This document shows, in pieces, positions 278 through 60,778 of a DNA stretch of 64,000 nucleotides. Under the pieces are notes generated by a model that ran no database searches, was not told the DNA's origin, and saw only the letters and a program-made list of their open reading frames with translations. Made by a program: the position numbers and the translations under genes. Location of the stretch: assembly GCA_951406725.2 (NCBI GenBank), contig OX597839.1, forward strand, positions 34,968,001 to 35,032,000, in the 5' to 3' direction. This stretch comes from Octopus vulgaris (lineage: Eukaryota). The stretch's first letter is position 1, and every line of letters begins with the position of its first letter.

Positions 278-485
278 TTAATCCAAACATGAAAACACAA
301 AGAGAAAACACAACAACGCGAGGACATGGAACAAATATAGTATTAGTGGACGGTCAGGAAGGAAGAGAAGAAGGAGGGCTTTACGTTTCGAGCGGAGCTC
401 TTCGTCAGAAACATAGGAAAAGGAAAGATCCAGAGAAGGGAAGACGGAGGAAAAAAAATCGTCAACGGTACACATGCGGTCACAT
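278..485 (-). mobile_element. Short non-coding element in (TA)n carrying a hammerhead-like motif (PLE terminal-repeat/retrozyme-like)
   Basis: Flanked by TA tracts; homologous to 26070-26275 in opposite orientation; contains a hammerhead core on the minus strand. Confidence 0.65.
378..412 (-). ncRNA. Minimal type-I hammerhead ribozyme motif
   Basis: Reverse complement reads gttt-CTGACGA-a-gagc(tcc)gctc-GAAAC-GTA-aagc: CUGANGA, 4-bp stem II, GAAA, palindromic ACGU stem III, GUA triplet. Confidence 0.7.
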
Positions 486-761
486 ATACACACACACACA
501 CATATATATATATATATATATATGTATGTATGTATGTATGAATGTATATATGTATGTATACATATATATGTATGTATATATATCAGTGGCGTGCGGTGAC
601 TTCCGGGGCTGGGCATGCAATGAATTTCTTTGCCCCCCCCCTCGGGGGGGGGGGGCAATTTTTCAGTAAAAAAAATTTTCGAATTCCTACGATTTACACA
701 TGGGAGATTCTGAATATGCAATCAACCCCGTATGACCTAGAATAAAAAAAAACGTCGCCCT

Positions 762-1003
762 GGTACTATTTAAGAAGAGTGGTCCCGTTGCGCGCTCGCG
801 CATCCGCGCTGGCTAGTCGTGAATAGTCGATCCTACGACTATCTAACAAAGTAAATAAATTTTTTAAACAAAATATATAAAACACAAAGTAAATAATGTT
901 TTTAACAAAGTAAATAAAACACAAAGTAAGGATCAACTAGTCACGACTAGCTGGCGTGGATGCTCGAGTGCGCGCACCGGGACCACTCTTCTTAAATAGT
1001 ACC
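762..1003. mobile_element. MITE with ~75-bp terminal inverted repeats
   Basis: GGTACTATTTAAGAAGAGTGGTCCCG ... CGGGACCACTCTTCTTAAATAGTACC around an A-rich spacer. Confidence 0.75.
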
Positions 1004-1218
1004 CATGATTTTTAAATTGTTTGCAATACTCATCAAAATTTGTTGAAATTCGAAAGTTCCATGAATTTAAACTCTTCTAAGGATGAATATCGTGCTTTTA
1101 TTTGGTCAACTATTGTACTGATAATTTTGCTATAAAGCATTTTATAATGTCGTTGGGGCTCAATAGATATATTCTTGGATCTCTGAATTCCGATTCCTGC
1201 ATCGACTCCATATTTTTC

Positions 1219-1612
1219 CCCCGGGTTCAGTTCCACTGCGTGGCACCTTGGGCAAGGGTCTTCTACTATAGTCTCGGGCCGACCAAAGCCTTGTGAGTGG
1301 ATTTGTAGACGGAAACTGAAAGAAGCCCGTCGTATATATGTATATATATATATATATATATATATATATATATATATATATATATATATATGTGTATGTG
1401 TTTGTGTGTCTGTGTTTGTCCTCCTAGCATTGCTTGACAACCGATGCTGGTGTGTTTACATCCCCATCACTTAGCGGTTTGGCAAAAGAGACCGCTAGAA
1501 TAAGTACTGGGCTTACAAAGAGTAAGTCCCGGGGTCGATTTGCTCGACTAAAGGCGGTGCTCCAGCATGGCCGCAGTCAAATGACTGAAACAAGTAAAAG
1601 AGTAAAGAGAGA
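1219..1612 (+). mobile_element. SINE family A (tRNA head, CORE-like segment, internal TA tract), 5'-truncated
   Basis: B-box GGTTCAGTTCC, CCTTGGGCAAG, internal (TA)n, tail GTAAAAGA repeats; matches many copies in the window. Confidence 0.85.
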
Positions 1613-2391
1613 GTTATAAAGAAACACACACACACACACACACACACACACACACACAAACACACACACACGTGGAAGCGCTGGTGTAAATTGTAAGTCA
1701 ATTTCAACAAAACAGAAAGATACAGAAAGTGGGTATCATGTGTTCAGCTCATAGCATGACATGCCACTGAGAGAAAGAGGAAGGGGGTACAAAATATTAT
1801 GAACAACCTTTCCTCCTAGCATCTGTTTTATCAATTCACTAAAAGAGAGAGAGGAAGGAGGGACAAACTAAGAGACAGAGAGGGGGTCATGCGGGTCATC
1901 CCACAGCATAGCCACTAAAAGAAAGAGGAAGGGGTAAAAATATTTCAAATGCCCTATCCTCTTAGCATGTCTTTTAAACAGTCACTAAGAGAGAGAGAGA
2001 GAGGAAGGAAGGACAAACTGAGACAGAGAGGGAGTGTCTAACATGCTGGTCTTGTCAACGCTTGACTTCTAAAAGCAGAAGTAGAGTCACTGAGAGGGAA
2101 GGGGAGACAAAATACAACTGGACGGATTTTCTTTGAAACAGTAACTATTTTATCTAATTTTCCGATCATATGGATAAAAAAATCACAGGGCATGCAACGC
2201 ATACCTTGCATACCTGAGAGTGCACGCCCCTGATATATATATATATATATATACATATATACATATATATAAATATACATACCCACATACATACATATAT
2301 ATATATGTGAAATTTGATTTAGTATTTCTAAATTGAATTTTTCCCTGTAGGTTTGGAATAAGATTCCCTCATATTATTATTATTATTATTA

Positions 2392-58105: not shown

Positions 58106-58143
58106 TCTTTCTGTCGAAGAGCGTAGGCTCGAAACGTAAAAGA
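58106..58143 (+). ncRNA. Minimal hammerhead-like motif with U at position 6
   Basis: tcttt-CTGTCGA-a-gagc(gtag)gctc-GAAAC-GTA-aaaga within element 58030-58245. Confidence 0.6.
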
Positions 58144-58256
58144 CTTGTTCTATTTCTATTCCTGAGCGACATACTAATACATTTGTTTGTTTGTACTCCA
58201 CCTGCCTTCGTCTTTTGCTTATTTTCGTAAACCTTCCCGTTACATATATATACATA

Positions 58257-58665
58257 TACGAGTGTGAGTCAAAAAGTAATGCCATTTTGTTTAGGACAGG
58301 TATAATTACTAACACAGGAACATGTATCATACATCAAAATGAAGCTGGTCCTCTGAGGATCACATCCCTACTTCTCAACATAGTCACCGTTTCTCTCAAT
58401 AGCAATGTTCCACCTTTGAATGAGAGCACGTATCCCTGCCCTGTAAAATTCTGTTGACTGTTCTTTGAGCCACTTCTTCACTACCTCCTCATTCACCAGA
58501 TTTAGCACCTTTAGGTTATCATCTCTTCGGTACCCCAAGAGAGGGTTTGAGAGACAAACATTATTCCAGTGACGAGGAAGTGAAAACTGTAGTGAAGAAG
58601 TGGCTCAAAGAACAGTGCCTAGAGAAGAAAATAATATGGCCTTGAATTGAAGCAAGTGACCAAGA
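58257..58665. mobile_element. Mariner remnant
   Basis: TACGAG..TCAAAAAGTAATGC TIR; HYSSDEEVKTVVKKWLKEQ on plus, with an inverted copy at ~58458. Confidence 0.65.
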
Positions 58666-59639
58666 GAGAGAGAGAGAGAGAGAGAGAGAGAGAAAGACAG
58701 ACAGACAGACAGACAGACAGACAAACAAACAGACAGACAGACAGACAGACAGACAGACAGAGAGATAGAGAGAGAGAGAGACAGATAGACAGACAAACAG
58801 ATAGACACACAGACTGACAGACAAGGACAGACAGACGGAGACAGACAAGCAGAGACAGACAGACAGACAGAGAGTAAGAGGCTGAGAGAGAGAGAGAGAG
58901 ACAGACAGACAGACAGACAGAGAGATAGATAGAGAGACAGACAGACAGACAGACAGACAGACAGACAAACAGATAGACACACAGACTGACAGACAAGGAC
59001 AGATGGAGACAGACAGACAGAGAGTAAGAGGCTGAGAGAGAGAGAGACAGACAGACAGACAGGCAGAGTAAGAGAGAAAGGAGGAAATAGGGTGAAAAAG
59101 AGAGAGGGAGGAAGAAGAAAAAGAGCAGAGAGAGAGTGAGAGAGAGAGGGTTGAGAGAGAAAGAGAGGAAGACAGAGTAGAGAAACAGATAGGTAGAGTA
59201 GAGAGAAAGAGAACAGAAAGAAATAGGGAAAGAGAAAGCAAGATTGAGAGAGAAGAAAAGAGAGAGAGAGTGTGTTAGCATTAATCTAGAAGTCATGTGA
59301 GCAGACAGTGAAATCTGGGGCTGGATAGAATAAAAATGAAAGAGGGCAGGGGAGAGAGGAAGCAATAGTATGTGCAAGTAAGAGAGATGAAAAAGAGCGG
59401 GAAAACAGTAGCAGTCCATTGTAGAGTGTGGGGTTTTGAGTGAAGTCTGGAGAGGGGATTGAAAGCTTTGTTGGTATATTACAGAAAGGTGTTGGAGGGA
59501 AGTAATCAATATTTGTGTTGAAGGGGTGTAAGGGAAAGAGAGAGAGAGAGTATTGTGAGGGAAAATGAATTTCGATAGAGTTGATAGAGAGAGATAAAAG
59601 AGATGGAAGAGAGAGAGGAGAGAGCTATGAGAGAGGCAA

Positions 59640-59965
59640 TAGGGGACCAGAGAATGTGTTTGTTTGTGCCTTCTCAAGCCATGCCTGGCTCATAAGGGCC
59701 GTTTTCCCGGTTTCTTGGCATATAAGGTTCCCCACCTGGACGGGATGCCAGTCCGTCGCAGGTGAGCTGCAAGATGCAGGAGGAAAGAGTGAGAGAAAGT
59801 TGTGGCGAAAGAGTCAGCAGAGGTTTTGCCATTACCTTCTGCTGGAGCCGCATGGAGCTTAGGTGTTTCGCTCATAAACACACACATTGCCCGGTCTGAG
59901 ATTCAAATCCGCGATCCCTCGACTGCGAGTCCGCTGCTCTAACCACTAGGAACATGTGCCTCCAC
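59640..59965 (-). mobile_element. SINE family B variant
   Basis: Reverse complement of GGAGGCACATG..TAGTGGTTAGAGCAGCGGACTCGC head. Confidence 0.8.
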
Positions 59966-60778
59966 TTGACCAGAGAATGGAAGGAAGAGGAAAGGAAAAG
60001 CAAGACGAGAGAGAAAGAGGTCTGCCTGTGCATGTATGTGTGTGTGCATATATGTGTCAATTATATTGACCCCAGTGCATAACTGGTACTTATTTAATCG
60101 ACCCCAAAAGGATGAAAGGCAAAGTCAACCTCAGTGGAATTTGAACTCAGAATGTAATGGCAGACAAAATACTGTTAAGCATTTTGCCCAACGTGCTACC
60201 AATTCCTGCAGCTTGCCAGCCTTATACATGTATATATATATATATATATATATATATATATATATATATATATATATATATATATATATATATATATATA
60301 CATGCGTATATACATATATATATACATATATGATTGATTGATTGATTCTAGTTTCAGCTTATGAGCTGTGGCCATGCTGGGGCACCGCCATATATATATA
60401 TGTTTATATATATATGCGTATATACATATATATATACATATGTTTATATATATACATATATATATATATATGTCTCATTTATACCTGCCTTATATGGCTT
60501 ATAGGTTAAATGAGGCATACTTGTCCTTACGGCCGAAACAGCTGTCAGATATGATATAATTATATATTATATTTTATATTTTATATTTCTATTTCCTTGT
60601 CTAATTATATTTACAATATATTTTGTATAATGCCTTTGCTGTTATGTAATGGTGTAATAAAGTATTGATTGGGTATCATCTGATGGTTGATGTTTGATTG
60701 ATTTAAGTATGTTTCTCCATTTTCTAATTTTGTATTATATATATATATATATATATATATATATATATATATATATAG

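What the first reader, a model, noticed from the sequence alone, without database searches (positions are those of the whole stretch)
278..60560. Archipelago of hammerhead-ribozyme-bearing mini-elements parked in (TA)n/(TAA)n tracts
Seen: short (100-400 bp) ORF-less islands, mostly inside microsatellites, repeatedly fold as type-I hammerheads (stem I - core - stem II - GAAA - palindromic stem III - NUH - stem I'). Positions: 378(-), 14515(-), 15772(-), 17586(+), 22390/22455 (both strands), 25953(-), 26141(+), 33171(+), 42663(-), 45111(+), 49869(-), 58106(+); partial or decayed motifs near 13355(-), 42470(+), 57010(-), 60530(+). Flanks are mutually unrelated in at least 8 families. Stems differ in sequence yet still pair, and stem III is usually self-complementary (ACGU, AUCAUGAU, ACGAUCGU, CAGCUG, AAUAUU). 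Established: Penelope-like elements and non-LTR retrozymes carry minimal type-I hammerheads that cleave as dimers via palindromic stem III. Inference: this genome hosts a diverse, microsatellite-targeting population of ribozyme-bearing PLE ends or non-autonomous retrozymes at roughly one per 5 kb, probably mobilised by Neptune-like PLEs such as the remnant at 8880-9940.
Basis: partly seen in the sequence, partly recalled or inferred. Interest (0 to 1): 0.8.

Follow-up and report, generated by a model that had tools for sequence, protein, structure and literature searches.

The report
Retroelement ends with swapped-core hammerhead
The scattered self-cutting-RNA (hammerhead) motifs are really in the sequence and are likely the mostly worn-out end pieces of several families of Penelope-like jumping genes, a known phenomenon, but one abundant family has two paired core letters swapped (G3-C8), which would be an unusual natural variant if it proves to cut.

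Summary
Partly confirmed. A minimal-hammerhead descriptor finds 6 motifs against a mean of 0.07 in 200 shuffles. Of the 17 listed motifs, 3 are intact, 2 have an intact core but a faulty stem I, 3 have one core change, 5 have two or more, 3 are halves, and 1 (42470) is not confirmed. 13 of 16 sites lie within 150 nt of (TA)n/(TAA)n, against 24% background. There are about 7 groups, not 8 unrelated families. Layout, TA targeting and inverted copies match published Penelope-like element (PLE) ends. The remnant near 8.9-10.0 kb is a Neptune/Nematis-type PLE, but no island adjoins a PLE gene. No island is a two-ribozyme retrozyme tandem. Among thousands of contigs from three coded organisms, no other letter reaches 5% at either site. 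My searches found G3:C8 only as an engineered rescue mutant; one key paper was unreadable. This scan noted PLE hammerhead ends, and G3-C8 in a phage and a protist, on other DNA. Cleavage is untested.

The parts
277..485 (-). Family A island (209 bp) between TA/TG microsatellites; intact minimal hammerhead at 378-412 (core CUGACGA at 408-402, stem III ACGU, predicted cut after A382)
26069..26274 (+). Family A island (206 bp), both ends identical to the 277-485 copy; hammerhead 26141-26175 with U4C
25865..26050 (-). Family B island, head-to-head with the family A copy across a short TA run; decayed hammerhead 25954-25991 (U4C, A6U, G8A)
58040..58242 (+). Family B island (203 bp); hammerhead 58106-58143 with A6U (core CUGUCGA), 5-bp stem I
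45096..45234 (+). Family C island behind a (TAA)n tract; hammerhead 45111-45161 with G3:C8 swapped core (GUGAGCA; G3 = 45118, C8 = 45123), 7-bp stem I, 5-bp stem II, palindromic stem III AAUAUU, U17 at 45154
14453..14580 (-). Family C island between (TA)n and (AC)n; hammerhead 14515-14565 with G3:C8 and U4G; same 5' start as the 45096 copy, 11 nt shorter at the 3' end
32694..33437 (+). Non-coding partial tandem: inverted truncated copy (32694-32837), direct partial copy (32906-33084) and one full unit of about 353 bp (33085-33437) holding the intact hammerhead 33171-33215 (6-bp stem I, stem III AUCAUGAU); not in a TA tract
49869..49955 (-). Family D hammerhead with intact core CUGAAGA, stem II of about 58 nt, stem III ACGAUCGU, mismatched closing pair of stem I
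56974..57064 (-). Family D 3' half only, between TA tracts
17354..17675 (+). D-like motif at 17585-17667 (intact core, long stem II, stem I not pairing) with an inverted partial copy at 17354-17422
22345..22556 (.). 212-bp palindrome (94% complementary arms), each arm with a decayed hammerhead (22386-22448 on -, mirror on +): one head-to-head insertion, not two motifs
42663..42700 (-). Decayed hammerhead (U4C, G5A, 2-bp stem II, stem III ACUCAGAGU) between TA runs
15772..15819 (-). Decayed hammerhead (U3.G8, 7-bp stem II, GAAA box broken)
13354..13399 (-). Partial motif: exact CUGAUGA, GAAA read as CAAA, stem I not pairing; beside (TAA)n
60504..60550 (+). 3' half only (GAAA and stem III ACAGCUGU); 5' core lost
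8977..9978 (+). Broken PLE gene remnant: reverse-transcriptase N-terminal motifs (8977-9215), internal deletion, linker Zn-finger-like motif (9535, first Cys read as Tyr), GIY-YIG domain with CxxC and HxxxxH (9649-9820), partly duplicated; many stops and frameshifts
   Evidence: (PF01541, E 1.9e-4, 22.1 bits, just under the 22.6 cut-off)

Best explanation
The islands are likely solo end pieces (pseudo-LTR segments) of about seven families of endonuclease-bearing Penelope-like retroelements, each carrying the minimal type-I hammerhead typical of such ends, and most copies show decayed cores. Steps. (1) Shown: short ORF-less islands with hammerhead layout, shared family ends, TA adjacency and inverted copies. 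(2) Inferred from Frangieh 2024 and Craig 2021: a PLE protein nicks AT-rich or (TA)n DNA and primes reverse transcription at an internal site about 100-125 nt downstream of stem II. [quoted passage not shown] (3) Inferred: on a transcript that begins just upstream of the hammerhead, the copy runs off after 130-210 nt. This gives a short piece with both ends fixed and no gene, often with an inverted second piece. (4) Inferred: only the source elements need an active ribozyme, which would cut as a dimer through the palindromic stem III; solo copies decay. (5) Shown: in family C the majority sequence has G3:C8 in place of C3:G8 with the rest of the core standard. Inferred: this is a compensated, probably slower but working core inherited from the source element.
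For: Descriptor enrichment, 6 vs 0.07. Layout matches the published consensus, with an extra base after A9, G10.1-C11.1 and a palindromic helix III (Fig. S3). Both ends are shared to the base in family A, and the 5' end in family C. Across runs, depth steps up 13- to 16-fold at 45096/45097, with low-agreement loose ends upstream (0.46 in X1). 14 of 15 listed joints are strand switches; inverted copies also occur at three window loci, matching 'inverted 5'-truncated copy next to the pLTR'. TA adjacency 13 of 16 vs 24%; (TA)n targeting is described for Neptune and Naiad. A PLE with a Neptune/Nematis-type linker is in the same window. G3:C8: both window copies (88% identical) have it. In 2811, 9498, 5254 and 59 laid contigs no other letter reaches 5% of depth at G3, U4, G5, A6, C8, A9, G12, A13 or A14, while N7 differs from the query in 97-100%. 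A loose end in X17 (2 contigs) reads GUGAACA independently of the alignment. The commonest stem I variant (45157 A>G, 19-43%) keeps a G.U pair. Two core changes landing on the paired 3/8 sites and staying Watson-Crick has a simple chance of about 0.6%. The engineered C3G/G8C double mutant partly restores cleavage of a PLE hammerhead.
Against: No island adjoins a PLE gene or resembles the remnant, and no genome is held, so the parent elements are not identified. Fixed 5' ends fit a dedicated non-autonomous mini-element equally well. The match to the anole distances comes from a different clade (Poseidon) and may be coincidence. Family C is homogeneous at most positions, so low variation at the core is no evidence of selection within the family. 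The 80% filter and the query's five differences from the majority in 45118-45145 bias against contigs with two more differences, so a minor C3:G8 subfamily could be under-counted. The G-C to A-U change in stem II of the 45111 copy fits CpG decay and is not counted as covariation. In the anole element hammerhead cleavage was not needed for insertion, so a dead ribozyme could spread. Most motifs are not unusually stable folds.
Confidence: 0.7

Rival explanations
1. The islands are monomers of dedicated non-autonomous elements (non-LTR retrozymes). Tandem master arrays elsewhere are transcribed, cut by paired hammerheads, circularised and reverse-transcribed by a PLE protein.
For: Fixed ends in families A and C. 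The 33171 locus is about 1.5 head-to-tail units of 353 bp without an open frame over the unit, with an intact 6-bp stem I; this is inside the 150-450 bp retrozyme range. One contig in X4 joins 45184 back to 45097 (table 5c). Li et al. 2026 describe solo monomers and derive retrozymes from PLE pLTRs.
Against: No locus in the window has two hammerheads in tandem. Family C joints are strand switches in 14 of 15 listed. The motifs are minimal, not the canonical type with loop-loop contacts described for most retrozymes. Circular RNA could not be tested: only contigs were served.
Confidence: 0.22
2. The PLE origin is right, but the variant cores (G3:C8, A6U, U4C) are dead. The source copies had lost cleavage and spread anyway because the PLE protein does not need it.
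For: Catalytic mutants did not affect insertion in vitro, and no RNA-seq reads began or ended at the cut site in anole. Naiads thrive without hammerheads. PLE min-hammerheads cleave poorly in vitro. A6 and U4 changes lower activity.
Against: In family C the only two core changes are the two partners of one base pair, which neutral decay would rarely give (about 0.6% by a simple count). The double mutant is a known partial rescue.
Confidence: 0.3
3. The motifs are chance matches in an AT-rich, repeat-laden window.
For: With loose settings shuffles give 4-14 hits. Nine of 17 listed motifs have two or more defects, are halves or are unconfirmed. Rfam finds no hammerhead.
Against: 0 of 200 shuffles reach the observed count in any of 5 tighter settings. 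Motifs recur at homologous positions in independent family copies. As a control, 0 of 90 viral-contig matches to the 3' half of the A/B motif have a CUG(A/U)NGA core upstream.
Confidence: 0.03

Closest known systems
Minimal type-I hammerheads (min-HHR) of metazoan Penelope-like elements (Cervera and de la Pena 2014, PMC4209133; Lunse 2017 as cited in PMC6765202)
   Same: Short stem I, extra base after A9, G10.1-C11.1 in families A-C, GAAA with palindromic helix III, frequent U17. Many families per genome, mostly solo copies, some opposite-strand pairs 100-700 bp apart.
   Different: Family C has G3:C8; that paper reports only U3-A8 as a natural swap, and its 56-row Fig. S3 shows C3:G8, U3:A8 and one U3.G8. 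No cephalopod row is listed. Here no hammerhead could be tied to a PLE gene. Family D has a much longer helix II (about 58 nt).
Neptune/Nematis-clade PLEs and (TA)n-targeting PLE insertions (Craig et al. 2021, PMC8557442)
   Same: (TA)n preference, inverted 5'-truncated copies, partial tandems, optional 3' extension. The window's remnant has RT before GIY-YIG and a linker of CX4CxxC type.
   Different: The islands are ORF-less, and their clade cannot be read from them. The remnant's first linker Cys is not intact, and it shows no hammerhead end of its own.
Anolis Poseidon PAc (Frangieh et al. 2024, PMC11167929)
   Same: Hammerhead about 110 nt upstream of the insertion's 3' end; AT-rich targets; C3G/G8C is the engineered partial rescue of its hammerhead.
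   Different: There the ORF starts in stem II and the natural core is C3:G8. Here no conserved ORF start in stem II was found, and G3:C8 is the natural majority.
Animal non-LTR retrozymes (Cervera and de la Pena 2020, PMC7229834; Li, Clavereau and Pollet 2026, bioRxiv 10.64898/2026.07.22.740005)
   Same: Non-coding, hammerhead-bearing, PLE-related; 33171 has a 353-bp head-to-tail unit.
   Different: Defined by tandem units with at least two complete hammerheads and by circular RNA; neither is seen here. Cephalopods were not named in the passages or term counts I saw.
Natural core variants of hammerheads (Perreault et al. 2011, PMC3088659)
   Same: Covariation of the 3:8 pair occurs in nature; U4C and A6 variants are known with low activity.
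   Different: The natural swap reported is U3-A8; G3-C8 is not mentioned in the section read.

Membership tests
PLE-type minimal hammerhead (min-HHR) | Type-I order: stem I, 7-nt core, stem II, GAAA, helix III, NUH, stem I' | tested here: met
   6 hits vs 0.07 in shuffles; met for 378, 26141, 58106, 45111, 14515, 33171; not met for the 9 decayed, half or unconfirmed sites
PLE-type minimal hammerhead (min-HHR) | Core CUGANGA (or U3:A8) | tested here: inconclusive
   Exact at 378, 33171, 49869, 17586, 13355; not met in family C (G3:C8) or family B (A6U in 2 of 2 copies)
PLE-type minimal hammerhead (min-HHR) | Extra base after A9 and G10.1-C11.1 pair | tested here: met
   Families A, B and C; not in 33171, 42663 or family D
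PLE-type minimal hammerhead (min-HHR) | Palindromic helix III allowing a dimer | tested here: met
   ACGU, AAUAUU, AUCAUGAU, ACGAUCGU, ACUCAGAGU; computed self-duplex -0.2 to -10 kcal/mol, +0.8 for the 14515 copy
PLE-type minimal hammerhead (min-HHR) | Self-cleavage at NUH, as a dimer or protein-assisted | not testable with these tools
   Only contigs were served; they cannot show RNA ends
Penelope-like element terminus (pLTR) | Contiguous with a PLE RT/GIY-YIG gene in at least one copy | tested here: inconclusive
   Not seen in the window or in the loose ends shown (24 of 384 rows); genome not held
Penelope-like element terminus (pLTR) | Inverted truncated copies and partial tandems | tested here: met
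   22345-22556, 32694-33437, 17354-17675; 14 of 15 listed joints are strand switches
Penelope-like element terminus (pLTR) | Optional 30-40 bp 3' tail | tested here: inconclusive
   Family C has a shorter (14515) and a longer (45111) 3' end, and loose ends continue past 45234; two discrete ends not established
Penelope-like element terminus (pLTR) | Insertion bias for (TA)n or AT-rich targets | tested here: met
Non-LTR retrozyme | Tandem units of 150-450 bp with at least two complete hammerheads | tested here: not met
   None in the window; 33171 has about 1.5 units and one hammerhead
Non-LTR retrozyme | Circular monomer RNA | not testable with these tools
   One guessed-RNA run, contigs only, family C only
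Neptune/Nematis PLE (remnant 8977-9978) | RT upstream of a C-terminal GIY-YIG with CCHH motif | tested here: met
   RT N-terminal motifs (recognised from recall) at 8977-9215; GIY-YIG PF01541 E 1.9e-4; CxxC and HxxxxH
Neptune/Nematis PLE (remnant 8977-9978) | CX2-5CxxC linker upstream of GIY-YIG | tested here: inconclusive
   CxxC present at 9535 with Tyr where the first Cys is expected; Neptune vs Nematis not separated
Rfam hammerhead families | Score at the family's gathering threshold | tested here: not met
   No hammerhead match at E<=10 in three focused scans or in the rows shown for the window

The most novel reading that the evidence does not exclude
Family C (14515/45111) is a natural, working G3:C8 hammerhead: the classic laboratory rescue mutant fixed as the standard core of a very high-copy animal retroelement family shared by at least three related organisms. 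It is invisible to CUGANGA-based searches, so PLE families now scored as 'ribozyme-less' may hide swapped cores. The recurrent A6U and U4C cores of the neighbouring families may be further tuned-down natural variants rather than decay.
Probability: 0.35. Interest if true: 0.6.

Novelty: new variant of a known kind. Interest (0 to 1): 0.4.

Why it matters
The archipelago itself is a dense example of something described in 2014: thousands of solo minimal hammerheads from PLE ends in animal genomes. The G3:C8 family matters more. It is a natural test of the tertiary 3:8 pair at genome scale. It also bears on an open question: whether PLE hammerheads are under selection to cut, given that cleavage was dispensable for insertion in vitro. 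A compensated swap kept in a prolific source element argues that the fold mattered. It also shows a blind spot in the standard descriptors used to call PLE clades hammerhead-free. The fixed ends at 98-124 nt past stem II give a genomic test of the internal-initiation model outside Anolis.

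Tried and rejected
Whole genome: not held, so no genome-wide census, no family consensuses for A, B, D or 33171, and no search for parent elements. 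Rfam: the whole-window list was swamped by microsatellite matches to miRNA models (150 of 354 rows shown); focused scans found no hammerhead. Loose descriptors: no better than about twice the shuffles; dropped. MFE z-scores: uninformative. Collection scans for more copies: 0 hits in metagenome contigs and genome contigs. The 2 viral hits to the family C 5' part lack the rest of the motif. The 90 viral hits to the A/B 3' half have no core upstream and served as a control. Grouping 15772 with 60530, 13355 with 42470, and 22390 with 42663 as families: rejected, alignments show only short shared motifs. Coding role: frames without stops occur on the strand opposite the hammerhead in families A, B and C; that strand is T-poor in A and B and the frames are short, so treated as chance. 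U17 as a co-adaptation to G3 (suggested by a remark in PMC3884650): not claimed, since U17 is common in ordinary PLE hammerheads. Run X17 is RNA only by guess and cannot show strand, level or ends. Summed contig depth was not used as a copy number. Look-ups of three island sequences and of this genome in earlier findings returned nothing.

Full report
Setting. The window is AT-rich animal DNA packed with microsatellites (139 tandem-repeat rows), a high-copy short repeat and LINE and transposase fragments. From recall, the short repeat looks like an octopus SINE; no call established the species and no genome is held.

Noticed in passing
window:51307-51440: A fragment of about 130 bp of 18S rRNA (Rfam RF01960, 76.9 bits) running into a long (TA)n tract, sitting at the centre of a long inverted repeat whose arms (about 51187-51308 and 51633-51754, extending outward) contain short-repeat ends.
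   Followed up: no
window:26145(+), 25986(-), 22442(-), 42696(-): U4C (core starting CC) occurs in four independent decayed hammerheads, against the usual C-to-T drift; A6U occurs in both family B copies. These may be family-level variants, not decay.
   Followed up: partly
window:25865-26274: Two islands of related but different families (B and A) lie head-to-head, 19 nt apart across a short TA run.
   Followed up: partly
window:32837-32924: 3.8 perfect copies of a 23-nt unit at the junction between the inverted and direct copies of the 353-bp element, suggesting repeated re-priming during insertion.
   Followed up: no
window:15646-15665 and 15924-15943: A 20-nt direct repeat (90%) brackets the 15772 island; it may be a target-site duplication.
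   Followed up: no
window:9707-9767 and 9878-9938: The YVGET segment of the GIY-YIG remnant is duplicated (61 bp, 93%), and the remnant is followed directly by a LINE C-terminal fragment (9982-10437).
   Followed up: partly
window:2570-3926 (-), 48225-48962 (+), 50053-50560 (-), 4027-4485 and 13774-14232 (-): Fragments of other mobile elements recognised from recall: non-LTR retrotransposon proteins and two near-identical Tc1/mariner-like transposase pieces.
   Followed up: no
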